A stretch of DNA of 64,000 nt from a virus (IMGVR_UViG_3300034104_005543:51487-115486); one strand, 5' to 3'; counted from the stretch's first letter, positions 2,093-36,804 are shown. Made by a program: numbers and translations. The notes: generated by a model not told the origin, from the sequence alone.

Positions 2093-2097
2093 GTATT

Positions 2098-7215: not shown

Positions 7216-7285
7216 ATAAATTTTAAAAATTTATTAAACTTGTAATGTTAAAATAGCTATATTAGTGTGAAATATTCATACTAAT

Positions 7286-10165
7286 ATGGCTACTTTTATT
7301 CCTGGCGTAACTGATTATATACCTCAGTTTCAGAACGATATACCAGATTTAGGGTTAATTCAACAGACTCTTAAAATTAAACAATCACAGTACGATGCTA
7401 ATTATGCTAAAATAAAAAGCATACAGGATGGTATATTAAATGCGCAACTTACTAGAGATGATACTAAAGAAACTAGAAAAGCGTTTTTTGAAGCTGCTAA
7501 TAAAGCAATCAAACAAATTTCTACTGTAGATCTTAGTAAAGCTCAAAATGTTTCAGTAGCAGAAAGAATATTTGACCCGCTTATTAACAATCAACTTTTT
7601 ATAGCAGATGCATCTAAAACTAAGATAGTAATGGCAGAATTACAAAAGGGTCAAGCTGCAAGAGATTGCACTGACCCTAAAAAGTGTAACGATGGTTATA
7701 ATCCAGAAAGCGATGAAGCACTAAATTATTGGTTAGAGAATTTTAAGAACATGACTCCTGATGAAGCACTTAAAGCAAATCCTAGAAGATATGTATATGA
7801 TCCTAAGATAAGTAAAAGACTTACTGACCTTATTAAAGAAATAGAACCTAGCGCTACTATTACTGAAGTTCAAGGACAATGGATTGTAAAAACTAAAATG
7901 GGAGACCAAGTTCAAGCTCATCTAAATAGTATTTTACATAATGCTGTTGCTACAGATCCTCAAGTAGGTGAATACATGAGAAATAAAGCTTATGTTCAAA
8001 GAGAAAGGTTTATAAGAAGTTCAGGTTTACCAAGAGAACAAGCTGACGCAAACTATAATAACGAAATTTTAACAACTGTAGAAAAACAAAACACAGAAGA
8101 TTTAAATAATATTAATAAGTCTATAGAAGAAATACAGTTTAAAGGTAAAAAACTTGTTGAAGCATCTGGTGGTAAAGTACCTACTAATAGTAGCATTCTT
8201 CAAAGAATTGAACAGTTTGGTCAAATAATTCAAATGCTTGAAGCTAATAAAAAAAGTATTGAAGAAAGACAACAAGATTTTGAATTATTTAGACAAAATG
8301 CTAATTCTTCTAGAATTGACGATCAAGTAGCATCAACATTATTAAGCAATCAAATAGGTTCTTTTGCTAAATCTTATAGTGCTCTTAAAAAAGAAGTTGA
8401 TATTGAAGCTAATCCATATGCTGTAAATGAGCAAAAGTTTAATTACGATGTTGCTATAGAAAAAATGCGAGCTGAAAATGATAAAAATAATATTATTCTA
8501 AGAGCTCGCATGGATATGGCTAAAGAGCAATTTAAATTTAATCTTGAAAATACTGCAAATATACCTGGTGTTACCCCTGAAGGAGGAGTACAGCTTATAA
8601 GTCAAGGTGAAAGTGCTACAAGACCTATAGATAAAATTGGAAAACATAATACGGACCAAGCTTTAGCATATGCAAGTCAGGCTCAAAAAGGACAAAAAGA
8701 TTATTTGGTAAAATTATATAGAAGTTTAAGTGTTGCTGATAGGAATAAACTATTTAAAAAACCAAATGGTGATCCTTATACAGTAGAAGAATTACAAAAC
8801 TTAGACCCTAAAACTTTACAAGAAACATCTAAAGGTAATGTTTCTCAACTAAGTCTTTTATATAGAACTGTAACAGGAGCTATAAGTAAAACACCTCCTA
8901 CTACACTACCTCAAATTCAAGGAGAACTAGCTGCATTACAAACTTCTATTAATTTAAATGAAACAGCATCTAAAGAAGCAATAAATGCTTTTAACAGTAA
9001 TAAAGAATCAGTTAATTTAAATCTAAATAAAAATCCTGATTTTGTAGGGTTAATGCAAACTATAATGAAAGGTAATGATCCTGAATTAAAAAAGTTATTT
9101 AGAATAAAAGATGGAAAAATAGATGTAGACGACTATAAATTATATCAACTTATATTAAAAGAAAGAGATCCTGCTCTTTTTTTAGCAAGTCAAAAAGTAA
9201 CAATGTCTGGTGTGAATCCTATGGGAGGTATAGGAGTTGGTTTTGGTGCTGTAAAAGCCTCTGAGCGATTACAACTGTTAGAAAATTTAGAACAAGTTAT
9301 AAGTAAAGCTAAAGATGATACCTATAAATCTAATTCTAGCCAATTAAAAATAGTAGGTGCTAATTTAGATTTAGATCAATTAGGCAACCCTATAATATCA
9401 TACCCTGCTATAGGAATTCCTACAACAGTTAGTAGTACGGATAATACAGCTGAGAAAAAAACAGCTCTTTCTATGCTTAACAGTTTAGATTATGTAGCTA
9501 CTACAGAACCCGAAAGTAAAATAAAGTTTTATTATCCCGATGGAAATAAATATCAAGAACTTGAAGTTGGTGCCAATGTTATAGCTCAATTAAAAGCAGG
9601 GTTTTCAAATCCTCAAAAAAGTAATGTACTGCAAATCAATAGTATTGAAAGAAGCGAAAATCTTACATACAAAAAAGAATATGATGATTCTAAAGTACTT
9701 TATAAAATAAATATTGCTCCTACTACAGCAGAAGCTATAGCAAAAACGACAGGAAAAACTGTACAAGAAGTTTCTCAAATTATTGTAGAAGTAGATAAAA
9801 ATTCAGATAGAAGTAATTTTGTAAATGCTAGTTCTAATTTTAACGCTGCAAATACTATACTCAAAGGAGGAGGAAAAATAACTCAAACAATTGATGATCC
9901 TATTTCAGGAGATAAATATGAATTAAATATTTTTAGAGCAGAAGATGGTCAGATTTACAGTTATCTTAATTACAATGATGTTTTTAATGGTAATAGTTAT
10001 TTACCTATAGGTAGTCTCGACCCTGAAGAATATATATTACAAGGTGTTCAAAGTATTAGTTCAGGTATAGCTACTAAGAATAATAAAGTAGCAAATGAAA
10101 ATCAAAATTTACAAACAAATTTTGTTTCAAAAACAGAGTTGTATAATTTACTAGGAATTAAATAA
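7286..10165 (+). CDS. Putative ejection/cargo protein, coiled-coil rich
   Basis: 959-aa ORF whose stop overlaps the next start (TAATG); only Cys pair is DCTDPKKC. Confidence 0.75.
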   Translation: MATFIPGVTDYIPQFQNDIPDLGLIQQTLKIKQSQYDANYAKIKSIQDGILNAQLTRDDTKETRKAFFEAANKAIKQISTVDLSKAQNVSVAERIFDPLINNQLFIADASKTKIVMAELQKGQAARDCTDPKKCNDGYNPESDEALNYWLENFKNMTPDEALKANPRRYVYDPKISKRLTDLIKEIEPSATITEVQGQWIVKTKMGDQVQAHLNSILHNAVATDPQVGEYMRNKAYVQRERFIRSSGLPREQADANYNNEILTTVEKQNTEDLNNINKSIEEIQFKGKKLVEASGGKVPTNSSILQRIEQFGQIIQMLEANKKSIEERQQDFELFRQNANSSRIDDQVASTLLSNQIGSFAKSYSALKKEVDIEANPYAVNEQKFNYDVAIEKMRAENDKNNIILRARMDMAKEQFKFNLENTANIPGVTPEGGVQLISQGESATRPIDKIGKHNTDQALAYASQAQKGQKDYLVKLYRSLSVADRNKLFKKPNGDPYTVEELQNLDPKTLQETSKGNVSQLSLLYRTVTGAISKTPPTTLPQIQGELAALQTSINLNETASKEAINAFNSNKESVNLNLNKNPDFVGLMQTIMKGNDPELKKLFRIKDGKIDVDDYKLYQLILKERDPALFLASQKVTMSGVNPMGGIGVGFGAVKASERLQLLENLEQVISKAKDDTYKSNSSQLKIVGANLDLDQLGNPIISYPAIGIPTTVSSTDNTAEKKTALSMLNSLDYVATTEPESKIKFYYPDGNKYQELEVGANVIAQLKAGFSNPQKSNVLQINSIERSENLTYKKEYDDSKVLYKINIAPTTAEAIAKTTGKTVQEVSQIIVEVDKNSDRSNFVNASSNFNAANTILKGGGKITQTIDDPISGDKYELNIFRAEDGQIYSYLNYNDVFNGNSYLPIGSLDPEEYILQGVQSISSGIATKNNKVANENQNLQTNFVSKTELYNLLGIK

Positions 10166-13100
10166 TGGATAATTTTAGCGATTTACAAAAAGATATAGAT
10201 TCTGCTATATATAGCGCTTATCAATTTGGTAATGTAACGGGCGCTCCACAGAATACTACTTTTAATGGAGATGTTGCAGCTCAGATGTTAAAAGAAAACA
10301 TTAAGACTACACCGTCTTTAGTTTCTACATCAGGAGGTGTTCCTTCAGTATATGGTGACTCTCAAATGAATCTAACATTTGAAAGGTACTATATGCACCC
10401 TAATTTTAGCAGATTAGGTTATTCACCTTGGAGAGATAACGATAGACTATATAATGAGAATAGTTCTTGGTTAGATAATACTAGTAGATCTATTAAAGCA
10501 ATGGGTCATATAGCAATGGAATCGTTTGGTTCTAATAAACCTTTCATTTCTACTTTAGATTTATTTGATCCTTTAAACTATGACGAAGAATCAGCAGGTT
10601 CTATATCCAGAATGATGAAATTAGGATATGACACTAGTGGTGGTCTAGGAGCATTTACTAATAACTTTTTATTAAATAGTGGTATTACTCTTGGTATAAC
10701 AGCAAGTGCTCTTGTAGAAGAAGCTGTTATAGCAGGTGCTTCAGCTCTTATGGCAAAAACAGGTGTAGGAATTCCTGCAGCTGTAGGTACTTTAGGTGTA
10801 GGTACTGCAGCTACTATAGGTAAGTTTGCTAGAAACATAGGTAAAGTATTTAATGCTAATGACCTTGTTTTTAAATTAGCACGTAACACAGATGAACTAA
10901 AGCAAGTATATGACTTCAGTAAAATGGGTCGTGCTTTAGATAATAAAGTAGTTGATTTTTTTAACCCTCTTTCTAATACAGCAAAACTATTAAAAGAATA
11001 CCCTGAGACTTTTAAAGGATTAAACGCTCTTGGTAAAACAGCTACTTCTTTTGGTGCTTTTTATGCAGATGCAAGAGCAGCTGCTAGAGTTCTTAATGAA
11101 GCTCAAATGGAAGGAGGACTAGTTCTTAATCAAATGGTTGAGGATGGAATACGAAAAGAGTATGATGCTACAGGACAGTATCCAACAGAAGAAAAGATAG
11201 CAGGTATTAAAGAAGCAGCTCAAAATGCAGCGTTTGCTACTACGATGATAAATCTACCTCTTATTTTCTTTTCTAATAAAGTAGGGTTAGATAATATCAT
11301 AAAAAATCTACCTAAAGGTAAAAATCTAATAAGTGCTTTAGATGATGTTAAACAGTTTGGTAGTTTTAGTAAAATAAAAGGTCAAGGTTATAAGTATCTT
11401 ACTTCACCTTTACAAAAAATATCAGCCGGTGCTAGACCTGTTGAAATAGCAAAATCATTTCTTAACTACACTCGATACAATTTTTCAGAAGCAATTCAAG
11501 AAAATCTACAGGAAGCAACTAGTGCTGGAGTTATAAACTACTATAAAAAGTTGTTTGAGAATCCTATGATAGACCAACATATGCTTTTAAAAGAATCTGT
11601 TGCTTTAGGTATAGGAGAACAATTTACTGGACAAGGTTTAGAAACTTTCTTTAGTGGATTTTTAACAGGGGGTTTGATGGGAGGCATGGGTAAAATAGCA
11701 AATCTGGGTATAAATGTAGGTCAAAGAATATACGATCCTGTAGCTTTTAAAGACTATCAAGATGAAAAGAAAAAGTTAAAAGAAGAACTTGAAGAATCAG
11801 CTAATTACCTTGACAAAAACTTTTTAGACTTAGGTAGAGGTCCTATTGACATGATCAATCCTAATGCTGTCAATGCAGCTCAACAAAGTGCTGCTAGTAA
11901 AACAATGAATGCTTCTAATCAAACAGGAAATGTTAAAGTATCCAAAGATGCTCAACGACTATCTTTGTTTGAACATGTATCTAATGCTATTAAAGGAGGT
12001 TTTTATAACAATATTATAGATGATTACAAAAGTCAACTTGCTGTAGATGACAAAACATTAGCTGAAGCTTTTGGTAGAGATATTACAGAAGTACCTAAAT
12101 TAAGATCTGATATTTCTAATGCAATTGCTGACGCTGAAAATATTAAAAAATTACACGATAAATATAATTTTGGTAATCCTGTAAATCTTAAAAGTGTTTC
12201 TAAAGACGATCCTAAATATAGACAATTATTAGCAAGATATAATGCATTTGAGACTGTACGAAAAATGCTTATAATGTCTGAAGATACTATCAAAGATGGT
12301 GCTTACAGAATGAATAAAATTACAGAGTCTTTGATGACTTTATTACCAGAGTTTGGAGAACTAGATTCTGATGATATTTTAACACTAGTAGATACATTTA
12401 GATTAGAAGCATATAAGTTTGATCAGATTAAGCAAGAACTAGAATTAGCAAAAAGCACTCAAAGTTCTCCTAGTACTACTCCTGAAGATAGAGAAAAAGC
12501 TAGAATTAAAGAACAATATATTAGTCGGAAATTAATTGCTTTAACAGATTTGCATACTAAACTAAAATCTTTTAGAAGTAAGAAAAAGACCAATACAGAA
12601 TTTACCGACGATGAAAGAAGTGCATTGTCTGGTGCATATAACGCATATATTAGTGTACTAAACCAAAATCCAGAAAGAAAAAGTTCTGTTGTTACTACAA
12701 CAAATCTAGATGAATCATTAAATTATATACTAGATTATATATCTTTAGAATCTGAAAATGAATTACTTACTAGTATAATTTCAGTTTTACAAGACCCTCA
12801 AGGTTTTGCTACTACAGTAAATGATACTACAAACTACCTAGAACAAATACTAAATGATACAAGCTTTGTATCTAAAATGGTTAACCGAGGTGTTAGTCTT
12901 TTAGAACACAATGCTATATACAACTTTATGTTTACAAAGTTTGGTGTATATGTAAAAGAATATGAAGATGGTAGTGTTGCATTTGAAAGACCTAGTGCTA
13001 ATGTAGTAGACGCACTTATTCCTGTAGATCCTTTGTCAGAAGAATATGAAGAAATGCTTAACGCATTTTTTGATAAAAAAGAAGCGTTATCTAAAATAGA

Positions 13101-16100
13101 TGCTACTACAGAAAAGATTAAAAAGACAAAAAAAGTTCAAGCAGATAGAGTTGCTAAAGATAAAAGAGATTTTGAAACTATAAAAGCTGCACTTAAAAAA
13201 GAAGATCCTTCTTTATCTGATGAAGCATTAGATAGAAAAAGTCGTTTTATTTTAATGATCCCTCAATTGCGAGATTTGTACATACAAGATTCAGTCCTTG
13301 ATGGTTTAGCTCAAAATATTGAAGATGCAGCATCTACTCCTACAACAAAAGAAGAAGTAGAAGAAGCATTAAAATTACTAGAAGCCGCTAAATTTATAAT
13401 AGTAGAAGACCCTGATACTGGTACCTCTTATTATGTACAGGTAGATGAAGAGGGTAATCCTTTAGAAGAAAGTTTAGAGTGGAAACGAGTAACAAGTCTT
13501 TATAAAACTAAAGAGTTTGGTGGAACAAAGAAGTTTACACATAGAGGTAATATTATAGATGGACTTTTAAGAGCTCTTATTGGAGATAAAAGTTTAACTA
13601 AAGAACAGTTTAAAGAAGCTTATGTAGAATTACAAAAAGAAAACCCAGAAGCTTTTGAATTTACTGATGATAATCTTACAACTTTAAGAAGTACTCTTGA
13701 TAATTTTATAGCTAGTATTGAGTCCCAGGGTTACACTCTTAGAGCTAATATACCTACTCTTTGGGGTACAATAGACGGGCAAAATGTTGCTGGTACTATG
13801 GACATAATTGCAGTCAATGATAAAGGTGAAACTTTATTAATAGACCTCAAAACTTCTAGTTCTAATAGAAGAAAAGCGTATGCTATGGAAGCAGCTCTTA
13901 AAAAAGCAGCTGGTAATAAATACAATTTAGTAAAAGAAAAAATAATAGCTAATGGTAACAAAATTAAAGGTGATGTAAGTAAAGGTGAAAAAAACCTACT
14001 TAATGATTCTGAAATAGGTGATATATTAAATAACTTTCTTTCAATAGAAGATGACAGTAAAATTAAACCATACGTTGATGTAAACGCAATCTTCTTCTAT
14101 AAAGATTCTGACGAAAATCAGTTAAATGCTTATGCTGATTTGTTAGAACAAAGAACAGGTATAAAAGTATCAGGGTTATTTGTGTTACCTTTAACTATAC
14201 AGGATAACAACAATAATAAAACCTATACTAAAATAGAAGCAGCTACAGAAAAAATTAATAATAAAGACAGATATGCTCTTAAAGTAAGTAGAAAACAACC
14301 TATTGCACCTAAAATAGAAACTACAGAAACACCAAAAACTGAAGAAAAAGAAGTAGTAGAAGAAGAAACTCTAGAAGAAGAACCCTTAACAGAAGAAGAG
14401 ATTAAGCTTAGAGATGAAAGAGTAGAGCTTATAAACAAAACAATAGGATTACTTGAAAAAAGGAAAGAGAAAGGAGTACAAAGTATTACAAATGTTGAAA
14501 ACACATTAGAATATTTAAAAGAACTATTAGATGAAACTTCTGAATTAAGTTTTGAAGAAGTTAAAAAAATACTTAACACTATTAAAACTCTTGAAGAAGC
14601 AATATCATCTAATTCTGCTAGAAAATCAAAAAGAGGACAAGCTATATCTTTAAGTATAGAAGAATACAAAAAACAGTTTAGAACTGAAAAGCAGTTGTTC
14701 AATGATATAGCTAATAGAATTAAATATCTTAAAGAAGATTTGCAACAACTTAAGCAAATTGATAAAGATCTATCTGATCAAATTAACTATTATAGAAATA
14801 TGATAGCTAATAAAGACTTTAAAACTTTAAGTTTTGAGGAGATAGAAGAAAAGATTGAGATTATTAACAAGAAAAAATCTGTATTAGAAAAAATAATAGC
14901 TAGTTTACTTAGAGTAATAAAGCAATCCGTTTTTTATCTAAAAGAGTACGTTAAAATCACAACTAAGTCTATCAATGATTTAGAAATATTTAAAAAGAAC
15001 ACTAACTTCAAAAGATTAAATACTGAAGAACTAAAAAAGTTAATCGATGCAGAAGATTCTTCTGCTACAACAGAATACGACAAATTAAGGAAACAAGCTG
15101 ACGAACTTGAAAAAGCTATAGAAAACAATCTAGATTCTATAGAAATAGTAGAAGGCGCAAAACAAAAAGAACAAGAACGTCTTGATGATTTGTATAATGT
15201 TGTACAAAAATACAATAATCAGCTACGGTACCTTAACAATCTACTTACAGTATTGTATCCCGATTTAGCTAAAATCAAATTAGAAAAAGCAACTGCTGGT
15301 AAAACTGCAAAAGAACAAGTTGCTCCTGGAGTTAAAAAAGCACCTGCACCGACTGCTAAACCTAGTCCTCAAAAAACAGAAGCTAGATTAGAAGACGCTA
15401 AAAAAGAAAAAGCAAAAGCTGAAAAACGTACTACTAAACCTAAAAAAGAAAAACCTACTACTACACCTACAGCTCAACCTACTGTTTCTGATAAGAAAGC
15501 TGATGTAAAAGGAAATTTAGCATCACAAGGTACTTCTATAGAACTAGAAGTAATAGGTGAAACTGGTAAAGAGTTTTTACTTACTGTAGATAGAAGTGGT
15601 AACATTAGCTTATGGTCTGAAAAACAACCTGATGGTACTTATAGACCTGGAGAAGGCGCACCAAAAGAAGCAATAGATAAACTGTATAATAAATACATAC
15701 CTGAAAAAACAAGAATAGCTATAACTAATTGGTTAAATGCGTTCACTGGTTCTTGGGCTGCATCAGAAACAGAAGATGGTAAAAAATATGATATAGCTGA
15801 AAAAGAACTTAATGCAGAACTAGCTGCTTTAGAAGGTACTGGTATAGAAGAAACTGATACTACAACTAATACTTCTAATATAGGACCTGTATCGTCTATA
15901 AAACTAGATACTGTCTATCCTATATACAAAGACAATAAACAGGTAGGTTCTGTAGTTTTGCAAAGTGTTAACGGAATACCCGCGTTTGTTTTTACTAATA
16001 GTAAAGGTCAAGTAAGTACTCCTTCAGTAATAACAACCTTGTCAAATAATTTCTTTAATGCTAATGAAGGTTTGTTTGAACATTGGTATAATAATATTCT

Positions 16101-17433: not shown

Positions 17434-17453
17434 AATTTTACTATATTTACCTT

Positions 17454-28631: not shown

Positions 28632-28632
28632 T

Positions 28633-30825
28633 ATGTTTTGTATAAATAAAAATTCAGAAGAGTTTAAGTCTCTTGTAGAAGAAGTAGGTTTTAGAGACGC
28701 TGTAGCATACTACTTAGCAAAAGGGTATATTATTGATGATACCGAGTTTACTTCTACTTCAGAAGAAGTAGAAGAAGTTAATAGCCTTTTTCAAAATACA
28801 AATTATTATAATTTAGAAAACACGGAGGTTAAAAGAAATATAAAAAACCTAGAAAAGCAGCTGCTAGATGGTTTTTTAGCTGAATATAATTTTACAGCAA
28901 CCGAGTATGAAAACTTAAAACAAGAACTAGGAATAGACTCTTATACAGCAACAGATTTAATAACAAAATCTATTGCATACGAAAAAGGAGAATCTATTTT
29001 ACCAGAGGTTGCATACATTGCCTATTCAATTTTAGGTAAACAAAACAACAAAATTAGATCTGATTTAAGATACCTAGTAAACAAATGGAGCAAATACACT
29101 GAAAGGTTTAACTATCATAAAAAAATAATATCAAAAAAAGAAGGGTTTATTGATGATAAAAAAGAATGGCGAACAAAAATAAAAGACCTAGTAATACTAG
29201 ACTTTTTAAGAGAAAATATAGAAAAATATTACTTTAACGATAATGAATTCACTAAAATTAATGATTCAAAATGGACAAAAGAAGATTTTACATTGTGGGA
29301 AAAAATAATTAGAGCAATAGAAAAATTCTTAGAAAAACTTAATATAATGTCAGATGAGCGGAAAATAGAGAAACTTAAAAATATAGGTTTATCTATTGCT
29401 AGTGAAATACTTACAAATAATTATCAATATTATAATTACAATTTATCGCAAGATCAAATAAGAAAATATTATAAAAATACAATTCAAAGCGATCCTTTTG
29501 CTAAAGAATTAGTTGAATTTGTTCAGTCTAAAATAGGACTTATTCTTACTGGATCTTTAGCTTTAAGAAAAGCAGGTTCTGTTTACAGAACTATTATTGA
29601 AACTTTACATGATATAGATTGGGTTGTGCCTTTTGAAAAAACGTACACTCCTACTAACATGGATGCGTACAATAGAATTATTAATGGAGAACCTGAGTTT
29701 ATATTAGATGAATATATAGAAAGTCTAAAGATAGATGATGTTGCAAGAAATGTATTATATAATATTCAAAAATTAGATTGGTTTCAAGATTTCATAGAAA
29801 AATACCCATCTTTTGAATTTACGGGTGGTTTTTATGGAGGAGAACATACTAAAAAAGAAAGTTTTACAGCGCAAGGTGTTGTAAACGGAGAATTTTATAC
29901 TGAGGATGGTACTCATGAACAAGAATTTACTTTTTACAGTAAAGATCCTATTACAAAGAAACCTATAAAAGTAACTGAAAAAAGTATAGTTAATCATAGA
30001 AAAGGTGAATATATAAAAGGAACAGGATACGCAATTGATTTTTTTGTACGATTACAACCCCATCAAGAACAACATGAAAATTATTTTAAACTATGGAAAG
30101 AAATAATGATTGCTAAAATTAGAATGGGTAGAGATAAAGATTTTATAGACTGGAAAGCATTTGTTCCATATCTTAAGTCAACCAATTCATTTAATTTTAA
30201 TTATGAAGGTTTTCGACATTTCAATTACGAATCTTCCAAAACAAATTTATTAGAAGAATATATAGTAGATACATTAGAAACTGTAGAAGAACAAGAAACA
30301 TCTACTGGTATAAAACCAGGAGTACAAGAACTAATGGATTTTAATAGACCTGTAGTAGATACTAAAGAAAAAGCATCTCCTGTAGTAGAAGAGTTAATGA
30401 CCCCTGAACAAATAGAAAAACAGCGTGACTTTGAAGATTTAGTTGAAAAAGCTAGATTAGATGAAGAAATGGGTATAGATAGGTTTGGCGATTCGTTTGG
30501 TCCTGAAACTATTAGTTTGCAAAAAGGGTATATTAACCCTAATACAGAACCAGTTCTCTATCAAACGTATGTAAATAAATACAATGAAGAAACAGGTAAT
30601 AACATCACCGGGTATGAATTCCTAAAAGATGATGAAGAAGACATTTTTGATATGTCACCTTTCTATAAATTCTTAGACGAAAATGATTTGCAAGGTTTAG
30701 ACTTACGTTACTATGAAAGAGGCGTAGTAAATTTTGAAGAATTTAACCAAGATGTGATAAAAAATAATAACTTTAACAAAGGGATTGACCCTATTGCAGG
30801 GTTTCCTGTTCCACCAAGTTGCTAA
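28633..30825 (+). CDS. Putative ejected protein with a Pol-beta-superfamily nucleotidyltransferase domain
   Basis: 730 aa; LILTGSLAL (GS at 29551)...HDIDWVV (29608-29619)...IDFF...AK..MGRDKDFID. Confidence 0.75.
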   Translation: MFCINKNSEEFKSLVEEVGFRDAVAYYLAKGYIIDDTEFTSTSEEVEEVNSLFQNTNYYNLENTEVKRNIKNLEKQLLDGFLAEYNFTATEYENLKQELGIDSYTATDLITKSIAYEKGESILPEVAYIAYSILGKQNNKIRSDLRYLVNKWSKYTERFNYHKKIISKKEGFIDDKKEWRTKIKDLVILDFLRENIEKYYFNDNEFTKINDSKWTKEDFTLWEKIIRAIEKFLEKLNIMSDERKIEKLKNIGLSIASEILTNNYQYYNYNLSQDQIRKYYKNTIQSDPFAKELVEFVQSKIGLILTGSLALRKAGSVYRTIIETLHDIDWVVPFEKTYTPTNMDAYNRIINGEPEFILDEYIESLKIDDVARNVLYNIQKLDWFQDFIEKYPSFEFTGGFYGGEHTKKESFTAQGVVNGEFYTEDGTHEQEFTFYSKDPITKKPIKVTEKSIVNHRKGEYIKGTGYAIDFFVRLQPHQEQHENYFKLWKEIMIAKIRMGRDKDFIDWKAFVPYLKSTNSFNFNYEGFRHFNYESSKTNLLEEYIVDTLETVEEQETSTGIKPGVQELMDFNRPVVDTKEKASPVVEELMTPEQIEKQRDFEDLVEKARLDEEMGIDRFGDSFGPETISLQKGYINPNTEPVLYQTYVNKYNEETGNNITGYEFLKDDEEDIFDMSPFYKFLDENDLQGLDLRYYERGVVNFEEFNQDVIKNNNFNKGIDPIAGFPVPPSC

Positions 30826-30828
30826 AAA

Positions 30829-33800
30829 ATGAATTGTTCTATTGATAATTTTCGTGATAATGTAACAAAACAAATGTTACAGTATGGTTTTGCAGTTGCT
30901 GCGTCTAAGTATTCAAGTAATCCAACTTTACAAAACGCTATAAGAAACGGAATAAGCACTAATCAAATACCAAAAAAGATTTCTATAGGTAATAAATCAT
31001 ATAGAGGTTTTGATATAGCTAAAAAAATTGCAGATGCTATAAACCAAGGTTGGAAATCTATGGTAGCTAATGTTGCAACTGTAAATGATACACATTCTAT
31101 AAACATAAACATTAGTCCTGATATGATGAAGCTTCTAGAAGCTGCTGATTTTACTGCAGAAGAAAGAAGCGCTTTTAACGACATAGCTCCGGGTTATGCT
31201 AATAGTCTAGAAGAAGAAGCTATATTAAAGTATGAGAGTATGAAAAGCTCTGATATTGATAAACTAGTCTCTGCACAAGCTAATAATTTTTTGAGTTCTG
31301 TTTTAAGTACTTTAAAGCGTGCTTTTCCTACAGTAAACTACCAAATTGTAAGTGATACAGATGCTAGAGAAATTACAAAGAATTCTGCTAACCCCTACAC
31401 AGGTCAGGGTGTATCTTTTTTCTACAATGGTACCGTTTATATAATAGAAGGTAATGTAACACCCAAAACATTAATTCACGAGTTTCTGCATCCCTTAGTT
31501 AAGTCAATAGAAGTAGAAAACCCAGGATTGTTTGATAATTTAGTTAATGAAAGTAAAACTGTAGATAACACTTATGGACTTGAAGTAGGAAAAAGACTAC
31601 AAGAAGAAATAGATGAAGACCCTGAAACTTTTTCCTTTGACAATAATGCGTATAAAAGAGAATACGTAACAAGAGTATTGGAAAGAATCGCTAGTGAAAG
31701 ATTACTAGAAAACAGAGAAGATGGTATTCTATATAACTTTTTTAACAAAGTTTTCTACGCTTTGAAACAGATATTCAGAAAAGTATTTGGTTCTAAAATT
31801 AATGTAAGTAAATTATCAGCTTATACTTCACTTTCAGATTTAGCTGAAATGCTTAAAATGAGTGAGTTTAATCTTAATGCTGAGTTATTTACTACTGAAG
31901 ATTATGTAGAGTACTTAAGTAAAGTAGAAGAAGAAATAAATAAAACAGCAGAATTATTAGCAGACTCTGTAAAGTATAATAAAGAAGCTGCAAAAGATCC
32001 TCGTAATATAAAATTTGGACTCTCAAATCTTGATGACCTGATTAAACAGTTAGAAACTTTAGTAGATAATAATACTGAATACTTCAAGAATAACAATATG
32101 ATAGATCCTGAATTAAATGCTATTATATTTAATTCCGAAACTGGTAATCTCGAAAAAATAAAAGAAGAGTTAAGACTAAATAAAAAGTTTCTTGTACAAG
32201 AACAACTGGATCTTAGTGAAGATATTAGAAATGCTTTAAACGCAGAAAAAAACGATGCTCAAAAAGCATACCGGTTAATATCAAGTATATTTGAAATTCA
32301 AGCGTTAATCTACAATTTAGCAGGACCTGATAAAACAGTACTTATTGATAAAACATCAACTGATGATTTTAAACAAAATTTAGTTTTGATAGAAAAACTA
32401 GAAGGTATGTTACGATCATTTCAAACATTAGCTCAAAGTGTAAATTCTATCATTGTTAAACTTGATCGTAATAATCAATTAGCACAATCTCTTAACCAAA
32501 CAATAGAATATTCTGAAAATGGTCTAAATCAACTTAAAAAACAAAGGTTTAACAATATAAAAGAAGTAATAAATGTACCCTTGTCTGCTATAAATGATAC
32601 GATTCAATCTTTATATAATGATCTAATTGAAAAAATAGATGAAGAAATAGCAACTAAAGGATCTAATAGTTTATTGGAAAAAAGAAAAGAGTATTATATT
32701 AAAACTCGCGACTCTTTAATGGTTTCCGAAAAAAGATTAGAAGATTTATTACAAGGTAAAGCGGGAGACTCTGATTTCTTAGAAGGTTATATTCTGTCTG
32801 CAGTACAATCTTCAGATCCAATTTACGGTACCCTTGGTAGTATTGTAAAAAACGCTTACAATAATATAGAGGCTAACATGGTTAATGTTTATTCCTCATA
32901 CTTTAAAGATTTAAATGAATTACAAAACAAAGCAGGAATAACAAAATTTAACTACTCTAGTAAATACAGGCAAATAATTACAGAAGCTACTAGACTAGTT
33001 AGAACTGTTGAAGAAGGAGAAAGTAATAAAGAAGTAACGCTTGAAGAAAAAAGTGACTACTTTGAGTTTTTACATTCTACTTTAGTTTCACAAGCAACTA
33101 ATGATATAAGAAGATTAGAAGCAGAAAAAGAAGATGCTTCTAGAAATAATGACTTGATTACAGTAGCTGAAAAGTCTAGAGAGATATCAGAGTTAAAAGA
33201 TAAATACTTTTTTGGTTCTGTTTTAGAAGGACACAATATCAGAAAACAAATGCTTTCTACAGAGTGGGGCGTAAGAATGTTTATCAAACGACTTAAGATA
33301 GAAGACAACATTCGTGTTTTAGAACTTGTTATAAAAGCTGAACTAGCATTAAACAATCCTGAAGCCCGACAAAATATTATAGATAAACAAGAACAAATAA
33401 AAGAACAGTATATATTATTAAATGAAATAACTAGCATATACAAAAAAAATGGTGAGGTTAAAACAGGGCAAGAATACCAAGATGCTATAGACTATAAAAA
33501 TTTTTATACTGTTACAGAAAGCAATTTAGAAATAGAAAGAGAAGAAACAATACAAAAATTTGTCGAAGCTTATAAATTAAACGAAGAACTATTAGGTGCA
33601 AACACTCCTGAATTTGGTCAATGGTTAGCTGAAAACACTTATATAAAAAGAAAAGATGAATATTTTTCATTAGTTCAGCAAATATTTGACAACATAGGTG
33701 AGACAAACAATAAGTCTACCAGTTTTACAGCAAAACTTAAAGACTTAAATAATGAACGATCTGCTTTAGGTAAACAGTTAAGTCAATTAAGAATATTGTA

Positions 33801-36800
33801 TTCTGATCCTAGAACAAAAATGATGCTCATTGACCAAATGACACCAGAAGCTGTAAAAAAAGTAAATGACATTGAGCAAAGATTATTTGAAATAGGTATA
33901 GAAATAGATGTAGAAAGAGGACTACCTAAAAATATAAAAAGGAAAGATATTGAGCTATTACACACAGTAAGGAAATTGTATGCTGGAGATTACGAATATG
34001 AATCAACAGATCCTCCTGTTATTAAATCACTCAAACAAAACAATTTTAGATTGTATGAAAAATATATTGCCATAAGTGAAGCACTAAAAGAATTCAGAAG
34101 CGAACAACCTTCTAATGTAGAGCAAGAATATATAAATGGTGAGTGGGGTAAATTCTACGATATTCAATACAAAGGTAAAACAGTTGCTTATGAAATGTAT
34201 AAAAAAGAAGCTATTCAAAATATAAACAACGGAATTTATGTTGATATAGCTTTTATTAACACAGATACTAATTTCATTAAAGCTTTAGAGAATAAAGATT
34301 TTAGAAAATTTATAGAAGACCATCATACTAAATTTGAAATAGAAGAGGAAGGTACTGTATCATTTGCTTATGTTCCAAACGGAATTCACATTGAACAAAA
34401 AATCAATGACAATTACAAGGACATGGTTGAATTTAGAAACAGTAAAGGTGAACTTGTAAAAACAAACTTTCCTTCAAGAAATTATCACGCTTTAAGAACC
34501 AAAGAAGCAGTTAAAACTCCTCGCATAATGGGAGTAACAGTAAATGCTTTTGGTGAATGGTTACCTAAACCTATTGAAGTATTGTATGCAGAATCTAAGG
34601 GTAATAAAATAACTACTGAGTTCTTAGAAAATATTCCTGACATGTCAGATTCTGAATACAATTCATTTATTAATGACAATGAGGAGTTAACTAAGTATGT
34701 AAATAAAGAATACTATAACTTAAAAAAGACTGATAAAGATCTCTGGAATCTACTAGAATATCTAAAGAAAATGTCTTTTACACAGCAAAAAGAAACTTCA
34801 AAAATGGGAAGACTTAATTTTCAAGTACCTTCTTTTTTTGCTAGTAATTTTGAAGTTGCTCAAAAAACATTATCTGGACAAAAACGATCTGGGTTATCAG
34901 TATTCTTATCTTCTATTAAAGCAAAGCTTTTTGGTAAAGAGGGAGATGAAGCTGAAGAAGGATACTCTAATGTTCTTTCTGCTGAAACAGAAGAAGAAAA
35001 ACGCACTAGACTTAAACTTATATCACTAGACTTTTTTGGTGATGAATTATCTAAGATACCTGTAGCAGGAAAATATCCTATTGACTTAGATAAAGTAAGT
35101 ATGGATATTCCTTTATCTATGTTCAGATACTTCTATAGTATAGAAGAAGTAAAAGAAAAAGTAAAAATAATGCCTATTGCTAGAGGTATTGAAAAAGTAT
35201 TGGCTGATGAAGAAAACGCGTTGAAAGAAATGGATAAAATTAATAAATATGCATTTCTTCAAAACAATCTTACAATCTTTGCAGGTGCTAAAAGCAAAAA
35301 AGAAGCTAGTATTAGAAAACAAATGGTAGAATCTTTTAACCGCACTATATTTGAAGGTGAAAATGTTAGAGGATTTTTATCAGATGCAACACCTATATTG
35401 AAAATACTAAATAATGTAACAAGATTTACATCGACTGTATTTCTTTCTACTCCAGAATCTGCTATAAGAAACAGAGTACAAATGGGCATGCAAAATATAA
35501 TAAACCTTGCAGCACAAGATGGAGTTGATAGAGAAAGTTACACTAAAGGTGAAATATGGGCAACTAAATATATGTTTGGTCAAACAACACACGCATATCA
35601 AGGAGGTACATATACCTTTGAACAAATGATGGTTGATGCTTGGGACCCAAAACAAGGTAGCTCAAAGCAAAGAATAGGTCGTAGTTTTAATAGATCATAC
35701 GCGCAAGATGCTGCAGATTGGCAATCATTTGTACTAGCACCAAGAACTTGGTTAGAAACACAAGGTGCTATAAAATTATGGGCTCAACGTATGTTCTATG
35801 AAAAAGTAGAAATAACAGAAAATGGCGTTACTACTAAAATACCATACATGGAAGCATGGTATATAGTTGATGGTAAACTAACACTTAGACCAGGTATTGA
35901 CAAAACATATGATGTAGAAGGAGTAAAGTTCAACCTGATCAAAAACAGAATTCACCAGCAAATTGCTTTAACCAACGGTGATTCATCAGCTTTAGGTAAA
36001 AGTTATGGAGATAAGTTTGTTATCTACAATCAGCTTCTTAGTATGAAAAGATTCTTTTATATGATGTTTTTGAATCGTTTTGGTACTAATTTTAAATATG
36101 ATAAAGAAAAATCTTTTTTTGATGCTTGGTCTTTTTCACCACGGCTTAACTATTCAACAGGAGAAACTCAAGAAGGATACTATATAACATCGCTACGATT
36201 CATAGCAAATTACTTTAGGAATATTTTTACTAAAAACCCTAATTTTAATATTTACTGGAGTATGCTTACTCCGTATGAAAAAAGAAATTTAATTAAAACA
36301 TTTAGTGATATAATGCTTTCTTTAGTCTTATGGTTAATTGGTAGAATGTTATTTGAGTATGACCCCGATGATGAAGATCGCTACAAAAAATTAAGAGCTA
36401 ATTCAGCACCACTACCTATATTTGGTACAGCAGACGAAGGACAGTTTCATTTAGAAGGTTACGCTTTTAATAAAGCTCTTCAGCTTATATTAGGTTTTCA
36501 AGAAGAACATAATACTTTTATGCCTTTACCCGGTATGGGTTTAAAAACATACACCAATTTATTTCAAATTAAAATGGCTACCTTTCAACCTAGTGCTGAT
36601 CTTATTAAAAATGTAATAACATATAGTATGTTAGGAGCAACTGGTGACGAAAGAGGTTTTTATGATAAAAGAGTCGGTCCTTATGAATGGCAACAAAAAG
36701 ATTCTGCTAAGATTGTAAACTTTATGTTAAAGTATATTGGACTATCAGGAACTTCTACAGATCCTGTGTTAGGTATCCAACAAAGAGAGTCTTTTGCTCG

Positions 36801-36804
36801 ATAA
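30829..36804 (+). CDS. Giant ejection protein with zincin-like HExxH motif and a hydrophobic C-terminal segment
   Basis: 1991 aa; TLIHEFLHP (31477-31491) with downstream EYVTR; IMLSLVLWLIGRML; last gene of the + block. Confidence 0.8.
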   Translation: MNCSIDNFRDNVTKQMLQYGFAVAASKYSSNPTLQNAIRNGISTNQIPKKISIGNKSYRGFDIAKKIADAINQGWKSMVANVATVNDTHSININISPDMMKLLEAADFTAEERSAFNDIAPGYANSLEEEAILKYESMKSSDIDKLVSAQANNFLSSVLSTLKRAFPTVNYQIVSDTDAREITKNSANPYTGQGVSFFYNGTVYIIEGNVTPKTLIHEFLHPLVKSIEVENPGLFDNLVNESKTVDNTYGLEVGKRLQEEIDEDPETFSFDNNAYKREYVTRVLERIASERLLENREDGILYNFFNKVFYALKQIFRKVFGSKINVSKLSAYTSLSDLAEMLKMSEFNLNAELFTTEDYVEYLSKVEEEINKTAELLADSVKYNKEAAKDPRNIKFGLSNLDDLIKQLETLVDNNTEYFKNNNMIDPELNAIIFNSETGNLEKIKEELRLNKKFLVQEQLDLSEDIRNALNAEKNDAQKAYRLISSIFEIQALIYNLAGPDKTVLIDKTSTDDFKQNLVLIEKLEGMLRSFQTLAQSVNSIIVKLDRNNQLAQSLNQTIEYSENGLNQLKKQRFNNIKEVINVPLSAINDTIQSLYNDLIEKIDEEIATKGSNSLLEKRKEYYIKTRDSLMVSEKRLEDLLQGKAGDSDFLEGYILSAVQSSDPIYGTLGSIVKNAYNNIEANMVNVYSSYFKDLNELQNKAGITKFNYSSKYRQIITEATRLVRTVEEGESNKEVTLEEKSDYFEFLHSTLVSQATNDIRRLEAEKEDASRNNDLITVAEKSREISELKDKYFFGSVLEGHNIRKQMLSTEWGVRMFIKRLKIEDNIRVLELVIKAELALNNPEARQNIIDKQEQIKEQYILLNEITSIYKKNGEVKTGQEYQDAIDYKNFYTVTESNLEIEREETIQKFVEAYKLNEELLGANTPEFGQWLAENTYIKRKDEYFSLVQQIFDNIGETNNKSTSFTAKLKDLNNERSALGKQLSQLRILYSDPRTKMMLIDQMTPEAVKKVNDIEQRLFEIGIEIDVERGLPKNIKRKDIELLHTVRKLYAGDYEYESTDPPVIKSLKQNNFRLYEKYIAISEALKEFRSEQPSNVEQEYINGEWGKFYDIQYKGKTVAYEMYKKEAIQNINNGIYVDIAFINTDTNFIKALENKDFRKFIEDHHTKFEIEEEGTVSFAYVPNGIHIEQKINDNYKDMVEFRNSKGELVKTNFPSRNYHALRTKEAVKTPRIMGVTVNAFGEWLPKPIEVLYAESKGNKITTEFLENIPDMSDSEYNSFINDNEELTKYVNKEYYNLKKTDKDLWNLLEYLKKMSFTQQKETSKMGRLNFQVPSFFASNFEVAQKTLSGQKRSGLSVFLSSIKAKLFGKEGDEAEEGYSNVLSAETEEEKRTRLKLISLDFFGDELSKIPVAGKYPIDLDKVSMDIPLSMFRYFYSIEEVKEKVKIMPIARGIEKVLADEENALKEMDKINKYAFLQNNLTIFAGAKSKKEASIRKQMVESFNRTIFEGENVRGFLSDATPILKILNNVTRFTSTVFLSTPESAIRNRVQMGMQNIINLAAQDGVDRESYTKGEIWATKYMFGQTTHAYQGGTYTFEQMMVDAWDPKQGSSKQRIGRSFNRSYAQDAADWQSFVLAPRTWLETQGAIKLWAQRMFYEKVEITENGVTTKIPYMEAWYIVDGKLTLRPGIDKTYDVEGVKFNLIKNRIHQQIALTNGDSSALGKSYGDKFVIYNQLLSMKRFFYMMFLNRFGTNFKYDKEKSFFDAWSFSPRLNYSTGETQEGYYITSLRFIANYFRNIFTKNPNFNIYWSMLTPYEKRNLIKTFSDIMLSLVLWLIGRMLFEYDPDDEDRYKKLRANSAPLPIFGTADEGQFHLEGYAFNKALQLILGFQEEHNTFMPLPGMGLKTYTNLFQIKMATFQPSADLIKNVITYSMLGATGDERGFYDKRVGPYEWQQKDSAKIVNFMLKYIGLSGTSTDPVLGIQQRESFAR

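What the first reader, a model, noticed from the sequence alone, without database searches (positions are those of the whole stretch)
10165..36804. Terminal-cysteine 'daisy chain' across four consecutive giant ejection proteins
Seen: reading the translations I find only 6 Cys in 8868 aa, all at termini. The 2422-aa protein has one near its C-end (C2417, 17413-15). The vRNAP has C8 (17475-77) and its last residue C3725 (28626-28). The 730-aa protein has C3 (28639-41) and its last residue C730 (30820-22). The 1991-aa protein has only C3 (30835-37). The first protein lacks an N-terminal Cys and the last lacks a C-terminal Cys, so each gene junction has exactly one Cys on each side. Known: crAss-like vRNAP and cargo proteins are packaged in the virion and must pass unfolded through the tail. 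Inference: C-end/N-end disulfides (or shared metal sites) form after lysis and link the proteins into one ~1-MDa thread. That would fix ejection order and stoichiometry, and the thread would be released by reduction in the host cytoplasm. I know of no description of this.
Basis: partly seen in the sequence, partly recalled or inferred. Interest (0 to 1): 0.92.

Follow-up and report, generated by a model that had tools for sequence, protein, structure and literature searches.

The report
Cysteine-tipped chain of crAss cargo proteins
Four giant proteins that this crAss-like phage probably packs and injects, its RNA polymerase among them, have no cysteine except one at each end that faces the next protein; relatives keep this rule at nearly every protein boundary, which points to untested end-to-end disulfide links.

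Summary
The four ORFs at 10165-36804 hold 6 Cys in 8868 aa, at the stated codons, one on each side of each of the three junctions. Chance placement has P about 2.5e-14.

The rule is conserved:
- In 80 IMG/VR relatives fetched by the RNA-polymerase core, 135 of 136 junctions carry a Cys within 12 residues on both sides. Internal Cys are 35 in 484,540 aa.
- It holds at 10 of 10 junctions in five closer relatives, and at 12 of 13 junctions in ten named Crassvirales, including phi14:2 and crAss001.
- In crAss001 the first gene lies on the opposite strand, so the signal is in the protein, not the DNA.
- Fused genes lack the pair. Split or inserted genes carry it.

No crassvirus disulfide has been shown. 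The nearest precedent is cyanopodophage A4, where cryo-EM shows gp27 Cys1715 bonded to gp26 Cys5 (PMC12002296, passages read). I confirmed that these are the only Cys of those two proteins and found no homology to the crAss proteins.

A Cys-free interior is already described for N4-like ejection proteins (PMC11445570).

The scan found this before on other DNA: 154 notes in at least 137 genomes.

Verdict: a real, order-wide feature. End-to-end disulfide linkage is the best reading (about 0.6) and is untested.

The parts
10165..17433 (+). First chain protein, 2422 aa (271 kDa). It sits where crAss001 gp47 and phi14:2 g067 sit. Its only Cys is C2417 (17413-17415), 6 residues from the C-end, and it has no N-terminal Cys.
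   Evidence: Blastp 27% identity over 714 aa to the 2295-aa first protein of relative G002. One PHROG hit, phrog_298 exonuclease, residues 1201-1383, E 4.5e-8. No Pfam family at E<=0.01.
17454..28631 (+). Virion-type RNA polymerase, 3725 aa (424 kDa). Its only Cys are C8 (17475-17477) and its last residue C3725 (28626-28628).
   Evidence: Tblastn of residues 501-2500 hits 65 phage records at E<=1e-3; every taxonomy line I read was Crassvirales, and several matches are annotated RNAP catalytic subunit. A profile of the window plus 11 IMG/VR relatives hits PDB 6vr4_A, the phi14:2 RNAP, at E 3.9e-29.
24072..24086 (+). Catalytic DFDVD motif (residues 2207-2211) of the RNA polymerase, in the context EIVAKSGGDFDVDK.
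   Evidence: D301, F302, D303 and D305 of the aligned piece are invariant in alignments A1 and A4.
28633..30825 (+). Extra middle chain protein, 730 aa (86 kDa), function unknown. Its only Cys are C3 (28639-28641) and its last residue C730 (30820-30822). It starts with a variant of the conserved head module M..CPNKNS.EWK.
   Evidence: It is 49-56% identical to 8 IMG/VR loci. No PHROG or Pfam family. The protein atlas gives only a weak structural neighbour (NTP_transf_5, TM 0.27 on a model of pLDDT 0.42).
30829..36804 (+). Last chain protein, 1991 aa (229 kDa). Its only Cys is C3 (30835-30837), and it has no C-terminal Cys. A GC-rich hairpin follows the gene.
   Evidence: Its C-terminal 840 aa are 27% identical to the end of the fused 2339-aa protein of G002. 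No PHROG family.
17413..17477 (+). Junction 1: ...FNKPCGPINT stop, 20 nt, MNITATSC...
28626..28641 (+). Junction 2: ...ELNKVLEVIRNC stop, 1 nt, MFCINKNSEEFK. The C-terminal helix motif (ELN..I..ILK.IC) and the N-terminal head motif (CPNKNS.EWK) recur together in relatives.
   Evidence: Complex prediction gave weak support only.
30820..30837 (+). Junction 3: ...GFPVPPSC stop, 3 nt, MNCSIDNF, with both genes in the same frame. In relatives G002 and G003 the two genes are one ORF without Cys at this place.
2828..10165 (+). Context: three upstream cargo-type ORFs of 675, 780 and 959 aa with 0, 0 and 2 Cys (C128 and C134 of the 959-aa protein). There is no Cys pair at the 959/2422 junction, so the chain starts at the 2422-aa protein.

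Best explanation
The four proteins are the RNA-polymerase-associated cargo block of a divergent crAss-like phage. Like other ejected phage proteins, they are kept free of cysteine. The exception is one Cys in a short connector at each end that faces the next protein.

The most likely mechanism has three steps. A short C-terminal segment of protein i docks on the N-terminal head of protein i+1. The two Cys then form an inter-protein disulfide in the assembled virion. The cargo thereby becomes a linear, unbranched C-end to N-end chain of about 1 MDa: 2422 aa, then vRNAP, then 730 aa, then 1991 aa.

Shown here: the sequence rule, its conservation, and its tracking of gene fission and fusion.

Inferred: the disulfide itself (by analogy with cyanopodophage A4), when it forms, and its use. 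Possible uses are keeping the set together in equal numbers, stapling the cargo core, or coupling their passage. Release in the reducing cytoplasm is also inferred.
For: 1. Window. 6 Cys in 8868 aa, all within 8 residues of a junction-facing end, P 2.5e-14.

2. Survey. I examined the best 80 of 491 relatives found with an RNAP-core profile.
- 135 of 136 junctions have Cys within 12 residues on both sides, 118 of 119 after dereplication to 70 loci.
- There are 275 terminal and 35 internal Cys in 484,540 aa.
- 191 of 216 proteins have terminal Cys only.
- 0 of 45 complete last proteins have a C-terminal Cys.
- N-terminal Cys always lie at positions 3-6, and C-terminal Cys at -1 to -10.

3. Closer relatives G001-G005. 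10 of 10 junctions keep the rule.

4. Named Crassvirales. 12 of 13 junctions keep the rule.
- phi14:2: g067 has its only Cys as the last residue, g066 has C3 and C-2 only, g065 has C3 only.
- crAss001: gp47 C-3; gp50 C5, C1334 and C-9; gp49 C5. Here gp47 lies on the opposite strand.
- Also cr1_1, cr4_1, Rudgehvirus, cr108_1, cr116_1, cr271_1 and PhiCrAssBcn1.

5. Fission and fusion.
- Fused homologues (G002 2339 aa, G003 2224 aa, G001 2014 aa) have no Cys at the place where split ones have a pair.
- 9 of 9 extra middle proteins carry both Cys.
- On an RNAP-core tree these 9 need 9 changes of state, and the fused or split first junction needs 5 (FastTree).

6. Apparent exceptions resolve. The cr108_1 '2967 + 798 aa' genes are one gene split by a group I intron (RF00028, 80 bits). 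The G001 breaks are in-frame TGA.

7. Precedent. In A4, cryo-EM shows the C-terminal helix of gp27 in a cleft of gp26, with a Cys1715-Cys5 disulfide (PMC12002296, passages). In the A-4L record these are the only Cys of the 1717-aa and 1114-aa proteins.

8. Disulfides do form in a crassvirus particle. They are seen in the gp57 dimer, the tail hubs and rings R1-R2 of crAss001 (PMC10172136, passages).

9. Background. N4 gp50, gp51 and gp52 have 0 Cys in 4294 aa, and T7 gp15 plus gp16 have 0 in 2065 aa. So the retained terminal Cys stand out against selection that removes Cys.

10. Connector motifs recur as pairs. The DPFxC end precedes a CP-type start in 0 of 14 cases, against 32 of 104 for other ends (Fisher p 0.011, phylogeny not controlled).

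11. Complex prediction. The last 80 aa of the vRNAP with the first 100 aa of the 730-aa protein gave weak support: score 0.35 against 0.00 for the best of 3 controls.
- That mark was reached by 58 of 80 solved complexes and 2 of 110 mismatched pairs.
- At 0.60 or under, it was reached by only 7 of those 80 and by both mismatches that passed.
- The runs agree in at least 77% of contacts, and the partner's pLDDT is at least 55.
- My own alignments were used, so these counts hold only roughly.
Against: - No disulfide between these proteins has been observed in any crassvirus. The crAss001 atlas did not resolve gp47, gp49 or gp50, and its main text never uses the word cysteine.
- The A4 pair is an analogue only. 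Phmmer found nothing at E<=1 and two connector HMMs found nothing significant. An AF2 model of the vRNAP N-terminal 350 aa (pLDDT 69.5) found no PDB fold at E<=0.001.
- In A4 the bond staples a five-fold ring, which is not evidently a thread.
- Assembly happens in a reducing cytoplasm and many crassviruses live in an anoxic gut, so where oxidation would occur is open.
- No thioredoxin or glutaredoxin family is found in this 97%-complete genome. The Erv1 search rang in no control, so it says nothing.
- Exceptions: the first Cys of crAss002 gp33 is at residue 35. L041 has its Cys at -19. In L034, L052 and L087 the RNAP has an N-terminal Cys but the contig ends 540-760 nt upstream, so no partner was seen.
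- Gut crassviruses carry more internal Cys, for example 15 in the 4620-aa protein of cr271_1.
- The complex prediction is weak, and in the AF2 model residues 1-8 around C8 have pLDDT 40.
- Copy numbers in the virion are unknown.
Confidence: 0.6

Rival explanations
1. The links form only during infection. The terminal Cys stay reduced in the particle and are oxidised by the host's periplasmic disulfide-forming enzymes as the proteins emerge, tying them together outside the capsid.
For: PMC11445570 (passages) cites the idea that ejected proteins lack Cys because they pass through a periplasm that catalyses disulfide formation. The pairing rule fits this reading as well as it fits links made in the virion.
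Against: In A4 the bond is already present in the virion, and crAss001 particles hold disulfides. Nothing here distinguishes the timing.
Confidence: 0.1
2. The Cys mark a non-covalent or metal-bridged clasp. The two connectors dock, and the thiols bind a shared ion or simply pack together, without a disulfide.
For: The connector motifs extend beyond the Cys itself: ELN..I..ILK.IC pairs with CPNKNS.EWK...LW, and DPFxC pairs with M.C[EQS]. This implies specific docking. It would also work in a reducing cytoplasm and an anoxic gut.
Against: There is only one Cys per end, and no conserved His or second Cys nearby, which is poor for a metal site. The only invariant column of the C-terminal connector alignment A2 is the Cys (A3 has three: C3, A25, L233). 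The one solved analogue is a disulfide.
Confidence: 0.12
3. The Cys pair differently. Options are intramolecular N-to-C closure of the middle proteins, homotypic dimers, or bonds to portal, capsid or other cargo proteins, rather than head-to-tail links between neighbours.
For: Sequence counts alone cannot assign partners in chains of three or more. Other virion proteins are Cys-rich.
Against: - Two-protein chains leave only the C-end to N-end pairing (e.g. L091: 4187 aa with C-1, then 1510 aa with C3).
- The outer ends never carry Cys: 0 of 45 last proteins, and 15 of 19 first visible proteins lack it. Of the other 4, one (L030) has a cut upstream partner ending in Cys at -4, and three lie at contig edges. 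Homotypic or capsid bonding would not predict this.
- Each new gene boundary adds exactly one pair at that boundary.
Confidence: 0.1
4. The pattern is a nucleic-acid or translation signal (TGY codons near stop and start for coupling), or a lineage relic without function.
For: The genes are tightly packed, with gaps of 1-20 nt in the window.
Against: - In crAss001 and PhiCrAssBcn1 the first gene is on the opposite strand, yet it keeps its C-terminal Cys.
- Pairs persist across gaps of 524-1314 nt (L047, L061, L064, L071, L094, L101).
- Cys positions vary from -1 to -10 and from 3 to 6.
- The rule survives divergence to 22-30% identity and repeated fission and fusion.
Confidence: 0.02

Closest known systems
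Cyanopodophage A4 (Anabaena phage A-4L, Saffermanviridae) pre-ejectosome pair gp27-gp26, PDB 9K3A (PMC12002296)
   Same: Two consecutive giant ejection proteins, each with a single Cys. The upstream one has it 3 residues from its C-end (C1715 of 1717) and the downstream one at residue 5. Cryo-EM shows them disulfide-bonded, with the C-terminal helix of gp27 in a cleft of gp26. 9k3a_A is gp26.
   Different: A4 has one link, not a chain of two to three. No RNA polymerase is involved. The bond is described as a staple in a five-fold ring. I found no sequence or fold similarity to the crAss proteins. The paper does not state a general rule.
RNA-polymerase-associated cargo block of Crassvirales: phi14:2 g067-g066-g065 and crAss001 gp47-gp50-gp49
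   Same: Same gene block, with the DFDxD polymerase in the middle. The proteins are detected in virions: the phi14:2 record annotates them from MS/MS, and crAss001 mass spectrometry is in PMC10172136. The terminal-Cys rule is the same.
   Different: The window has four chain members, not three. An extra 730-aa protein sits after the polymerase, and the polymerase is much larger (3725 aa against 2180-2412). The papers I read do not mention these Cys. The phi14:2 preprint has 0 hits for cysteine, disulfide or Cys, and the crAss001 atlas has 0 for cysteine.
Cys-free ejection proteins of Schitoviridae (N4 gp50-52, DEV gp71-73) and of T7 (gp15, gp16)
   Same: The interior of ejected proteins is swept clean of Cys. 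N4 has 0 in 4294 aa and T7 gp15 plus gp16 have 0 in 2065 aa. The DEV paper reports 0.00075% in gp71 homologues against 0.865% in the proteomes.
   Different: Those proteins have no terminal Cys pairs at all; T7 gp14 has a lone C2. The crassvirus feature is the retained, paired terminal Cys.
Inter-subunit disulfides of the crAss001 tail and portal vertex (PMC10172136)
   Same: They show that disulfides form in crassvirus particles.
   Different: They join external structural proteins that are not ejected. The cargo proteins were not resolved.

Membership tests
crAss-like virion RNA polymerase (phi14:2 gp66 family) | Catalytic DFDxD motif in its conserved context | tested here: met
   GGDFDVDK at residue 2207. 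D, F, D and D are invariant in A1 and A4.
crAss-like virion RNA polymerase (phi14:2 gp66 family) | Sequence similarity to the solved gp66 and to annotated crassvirus RNAP subunits | tested here: met
   Profile A4 (window plus 11 IMG/VR relatives, no named phage) hits 6vr4_A at E 3.9e-29 over 546 profile positions. Tblastn hits 65 phage records (Crassvirales where I read the taxonomy line). The window piece alone (phmmer, 1200 aa) finds no PDB chain at E<=0.01.
crAss-like virion RNA polymerase (phi14:2 gp66 family) | Position in the late operon after tail and cargo genes, flanked by giant partner genes | tested here: met
   The order matches crAss002, cr1_1 and phi14:2.
crAss-like virion RNA polymerase (phi14:2 gp66 family) | Packaged in the virion and injected | not testable with these tools
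   Inferred from homologues detected in virions.
Head-to-tail disulfide-linked ejection proteins (A4 gp27-gp26 type) | A Cys within a few residues of the C-end of the upstream protein and of the N-start of the downstream protein, with interiors otherwise Cys-free | tested here: met
   for the window, for A4, for relatives.
Head-to-tail disulfide-linked ejection proteins (A4 gp27-gp26 type) | Disulfide observed between the two Cys in the particle | not testable with these tools
   Seen only in A4. No such data exist for any crassvirus in the texts I read.
Head-to-tail disulfide-linked ejection proteins (A4 gp27-gp26 type) | Common descent with A4 gp27 or gp26 | tested here: not met
   Phmmer found no hit at E<=1 against 250+ chain proteins. 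Connector HMMs found nothing significant. Foldseek of the AF2 model found no PDB match at E<=0.001. So this works like the A4 pair but is not filed as its relative.
Head-to-tail disulfide-linked ejection proteins (A4 gp27-gp26 type) | Docking of the C-terminal segment on the N-terminal domain of the next protein | tested here: inconclusive
   Weak support only: score 0.35 against best control 0.00. At 0.60 or under, the mark was reached by 7 of 80 solved complexes and by both of the 2 mismatches that passed.

The most novel reading that the evidence does not exclude
Crassvirales build a covalent 'protein train'. Each junction has its own cognate plug-and-socket connector, a short C-terminal helix ending in Cys and an N-terminal head starting with Cys. 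The connectors set the order of the cars, and the disulfides turn 0.6-1 MDa of cargo, RNA polymerase included, into one unbranched thread. The thread is packed in fixed stoichiometry, passes the tail single file with each protein pulling the next, and falls apart by reduction in the cytoplasm. Gene fission is tolerated because a disulfide replaces the lost peptide bond. The A4 pair would then be a second, independent invention of the same trick.
Probability: 0.3. Interest if true: 0.88.

Novelty: new variant of a known kind. Interest (0 to 1): 0.8.

Why it matters
How podophages deliver huge proteins through a narrow tail, in what order and in what numbers, is an open question. In crassviruses the polymerase-associated cargo (gp47, gp49, gp50) was not resolved by cryo-EM.

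A conserved terminal-Cys rule gives a concrete hypothesis that is cheap to test in two cultured systems, phi14:2 and crAss001. Non-reducing gels, cross-link mass spectrometry and Cys-to-Ser mutants would do it.

The rule is also a practical annotation aid. It tells which giant ORFs belong to one cargo set and where true protein ends lie. Here it exposed two annotated 'gene pairs' that are single genes split by group I introns, and one relative with in-frame TGA codons. It also explains why this block can be split, fused and rearranged so freely during evolution.

Tried and rejected
- Close relatives in GenBank phages. Tblastn of the 730-aa protein and megablast of 20 kb both gave no match.
- The search for related loci with single pieces of the 2422-aa and 1991-aa proteins found no relative. 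I switched to records behind known loci and to a profile query.
- Stop-codon read-through or another genetic code as the cause of the junctions in the window is rejected. All four genes end in TAA, and two junctions change or keep frame across real starts.
- Phage-encoded redox enzymes. There is no thioredoxin or glutaredoxin family in the genome. The Erv1/Alr search rang in no control genome, so it says nothing.
- Homology of the crAss connectors to A4 gp26, gp27 or gp28. Phmmer and two HMMs found nothing. The AF2 model of the vRNAP N-terminal 350 aa (pLDDT 69.5, pTM 0.43) had no Foldseek match in the PDB at E<=0.001, and neither 9k3a nor 6vr4 appeared in the list shown. I did not run the VIA-align libraries.
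- Function of the 730-aa protein. PHROGs and Pfam gave none. The atlas gave no usable feature hit and only TM 0.27 to an NTP_transf_5 cluster on a poor model. It remains unresolved.
- p-crAssphage could not be checked, because neither accession I tried is in the collection.
- Not done: scans of metagenome contigs or genome contigs, sequencing-run look-ups, and the remaining 411 of 491 relatives.
For PMC10172136 I saw only the legends of Extended Data Tables 2 and 3. Their contents (the disulfide list and the reduced against non-reduced mass spectrometry) may bear directly on the claim.

Full report
**The observation.** The window carries ten + strand ORFs in a row, followed by a minus-strand replication module.
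- 10165-17433, 2422 aa
- 17454-28631, 3725 aa
- 28633-30825, 730 aa
- 30829-36804, 1991 aa

A script gave every cysteine: C2417; C8 and C3725; C3 and C730; C3. There is one Cys on each side of each junction and none at the two outer ends.

All four genes stop at TAA. The gaps are 20, 1 and 3 nt, so no read-through or unusual code is needed.

The shortage is not compositional. TGT/TGC occurs 6 times in frame, but 133 and 448 times in the other two frames of the same ORFs. Random placement of six Cys into the 48 junction-facing terminal positions has P = 2.5e-14.

Other genes of the phage are ordinary or Cys-rich. Minus-strand ORFs hold 0-3.1% (one has none). Tail-type ORFs upstream in the 115-kb record hold up to 4.6%. 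The preceding cargo-type ORFs of 1897, 675 and 780 aa have none. The four proteins sum to 1010 kDa.

**What the genes are.** PHROGs and Pfam say almost nothing. The 3725-aa protein has the catalytic DFDVD motif at residue 2207, in the context shared with phi14:2 gp66 and crAss001 gp50. Tblastn of its centre hits 65 phage records (Crassvirales in every taxonomy line I read) at 22-30% identity. A profile built only from the window and 11 IMG/VR relatives hits the solved phi14:2 polymerase 6vr4_A at E 3.9e-29. The window piece alone finds nothing in the PDB.

So this is the polymerase-associated cargo block of a divergent crAss-like phage. The 2422-aa protein sits in the place of gp47/g067, and the 1991-aa protein comes last. 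The 730-aa protein is an extra member of unknown function.

**Conservation in closer relatives.** Eight IMG/VR loci related to the 730-aa protein, extended upstream, keep the rule at 10 of 10 junctions:

| Relative | Chain (lengths in aa, Cys positions) |
|---|---|
| G002 | 2295 (C-1), 3597 (C5, C-5), 2339 (C5) |
| G004 | >2134 (C-2), 3557 (C7, C-2), 575 (C6, C-2), 1613 (C4) |
| G003 | 4101 (C2944, C-1), 2224 (C4) |
| G005 | 4277 (C3296, C-1), 525 (C4, C-7), 1711 (C3) |
| G001 | 4157 (C1802, C3912, C-2), 1329 (C5, C-1), 2014 (C3) |

The G001 chain appears once three in-frame TGA codons are read through.

Where the 730-type gene is fused to the next gene (G002, G003, G001), the fused protein has only its N-terminal Cys. 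Where the gene is split (window, G004, G005), a pair sits at the split. G003 and G005 are 54% identical over this stretch. The split falls in a variable linker in which the fused form has no Cys.

**Conservation across the order.** A profile of the polymerase core found 491 relatives in IMG/VR. I examined the best 80, which are 23-43% identical to the query in their best aligned segment. Results:
- 135 of 136 junctions between consecutive giant ORFs have a Cys within 12 residues on both sides. After dereplication to 70 loci the count is 118 of 119. The one miss, L041, has its Cys at -19.
- The 216 chain proteins hold 310 Cys in 484,540 aa. Of these, 275 are terminal and 35 internal (0.007%). 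191 proteins have terminal Cys only.
- No complete last protein has a C-terminal Cys (0 of 45).
- Of 19 first visible proteins with a complete N-end, 15 lack an N-terminal Cys. Of the other four, L030 has a cut upstream ORF ending in Cys at -4. In L034, L052 and L087 the contig ends 540-760 nt upstream, so no partner was seen.
- N-terminal Cys always lie at positions 3-6, and C-terminal Cys at -1 to -10.
- Eighteen other complete ORFs in the same loci hold 0.91% Cys.

**Named phages.** The rule holds at 12 of 13 junctions.
- phi14:2 is perfect. g067 has its only Cys as the last residue, g066 has C3 and C-2 only, and g065 has C3 only.
- crAss001 has gp47 with C-3 only, gp50 with C5, C1334 and C-9, and gp49 with C5 only, although gp47 lies on the opposite strand. 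PhiCrAssBcn1 is the same.
- cr1_1, cr4_1, Rudgehvirus and cr271_1 each keep their junction pair.
- cr108_1 and cr116_1 looked like exceptions until the annotated gene pairs proved to be single polymerase genes. Both are interrupted at the DFDxD motif by group I introns: RF00028 at 80 bits in cr108_1, and two partial matches around a 215-aa ORF in cr116_1.
- crAss002 is the real exception. Its upstream protein has C-2, but the first Cys of gp33 is at residue 35.
- Gut phages carry more internal Cys than the environmental ones.

**Not a DNA signal, and repeatedly evolved.** The inverted gene in crAss001, and pairs that persist across gaps of 524-1314 nt, exclude a stop-start coupling signal. All 9 extra middle proteins carry both Cys: six survey loci, the window, G004 and G005. 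On a FastTree of the polymerase core (79 rows), the 9 occurrences need 9 changes of state, and the fused or split first junction (10 fused of 68 scored) needs 5. Deep branches of such a tree are unreliable, so these are rough counts. Even so, the pair has clearly appeared and disappeared with gene boundaries many times.

**Connectors.** The ends are more than a lone Cys. A C-terminal helix motif (ELN..I..ILK.IC) precedes an N-terminal head (M..CP[NI]K[NST]S.EW[KQ]...LW) that is attached to otherwise dissimilar bodies, at 10-21% identity. A DPFxC end goes with M.C[EQS] starts, and never with CP starts: 0 of 14 against 32 of 104 (p 0.011, phylogeny uncontrolled). The first junction usually reads acidic...L.C, then M..TCALS..Q.E.

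A complex prediction of the window's junction 2 connectors gave weak support only. The score was 0.35 against 0.00 for the best control. At 0.60 or under, that mark was reached by 7 of 80 solved complexes and by both of the 2 of 110 mismatches that passed. In an AF2 model of the polymerase N-terminus, C8 lies in a low-confidence tail before a helical bundle.

**What is known.**
- Cys suppression in ejected proteins is described for Schitoviridae, with the rationale of passage through a disulfide-forming periplasm (PMC11445570, passages). I confirmed 0 Cys in N4 gp50-52 and in T7 gp15 and gp16.
- The crAss001 atlas (PMC10172136; passages and the mass-spectrometry section read) reports disulfides in the tail and portal vertex and detects gp47, gp49 and gp50 in virions. 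It did not resolve them and never mentions cysteine.
- The phi14:2 preprint notes that the three proteins are fused in some phages, but has no word on Cys.
- Earlier notes of this scan (154 notes in at least 137 genomes) pointed me to cyanopodophage A4. I read the passages. Cryo-EM shows the C-terminal helix of gp27 in a cleft of gp26, stabilised by a Cys1715-Cys5 disulfide. In the A-4L record these are the only Cys of the 1717-aa and 1114-aa proteins, and 9k3a_A is gp26.
- I found no homology between the A4 and crAss proteins, so A4 is an analogue.
- Six completed paper searches turned up no description of the crassvirus chain.

The best reading is that consecutive cargo proteins are disulfide-linked C-end to N-end in the particle, with confidence about 0.6. 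It rests on the sequence rule, its co-variation with gene boundaries, the A4 precedent and the presence of disulfides in crassvirus particles.

The timing of the links, the role in ordered ejection and the release by reduction are all inferred. The main rivals are links formed only in the host periplasm, a non-covalent or metal clasp, and other pairings.

Against the literature it is a new variant of a known kind. Within this scan it has been reported before on other DNA.

Noticed in passing
L016:22459-22777 (cr108_1, MT774385): A group I intron (RF00028, 80 bits, E 9.6e-21) splits the DFDxD motif of the polymerase gene. The record annotates the two exons as separate 2967-aa and 798-aa hypothetical proteins.
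   Followed up: yes
L106:14794-15636 (cr116_1, MT774389): Two partial group I intron matches (34.7 and 32.3 bits, both below the gathering score) flank a 215-aa Cys-rich ORF at the same place in the polymerase gene. The annotated 2507-aa and 833-aa ORFs are therefore probably exons of one gene.
   Followed up: partly
L001/L010 (record G001), joined coordinates 26195, 26624 and 30754: Three in-frame TGA codons interrupt two chain genes. The twin contig L002 shows the same ORF breaks. Reading them through restores the terminal-Cys rule, so TGA may be read as sense there. No tRNA gene lies in the 41.8 kb examined.
   Followed up: partly
window 7286-10165 (959-aa cargo-type protein): Its only Cys form a CX5C pair (C128, C134), kept at the same residues in the 1057-aa homologue of G002. 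Similar close pairs occur in crAss001 gp45 (C390, C398) and phi14:2 g069 (C369, C378).
   Followed up: no
window 1280-2826: Two small ORFs sit among Cys-free cargo genes: 270 aa with a CxxC, and 242 aa with 11 Cys (four CxxC pairs among them). They look like an inserted nuclease cassette.
   Followed up: no
L017 (crAss001) and L105 (PhiCrAssBcn1): The first chain gene (gp47 type) is inverted relative to the polymerase and the last gene, yet the terminal-Cys pattern is intact.
   Followed up: yes
L107 (cr271_1), L106 (cr116_1), L015 (crAss002): Gut crassviruses tolerate more internal Cys in the chain proteins than the environmental relatives do: 15 in 4620 aa, 10 in 2507 aa and 7 in 4245 aa, against 0.007% overall in the survey.
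   Followed up: partly
window 17454-28631: Pfam gave no family at E<=0.01 for the whole 3725-aa polymerase. The DUF4326-like and NADAR-like tail modules proposed in another first-reader note are therefore not supported by that scan.
   Followed up: partly
alignment A3 (window 28633-29532 and 9 relatives): A conserved head of about 35 residues (M..CPNKNS.EWK.L...G.E..A..LW) is attached to protein bodies that are otherwise only 10-21% identical, as if the connector were a portable module.
   Followed up: partly
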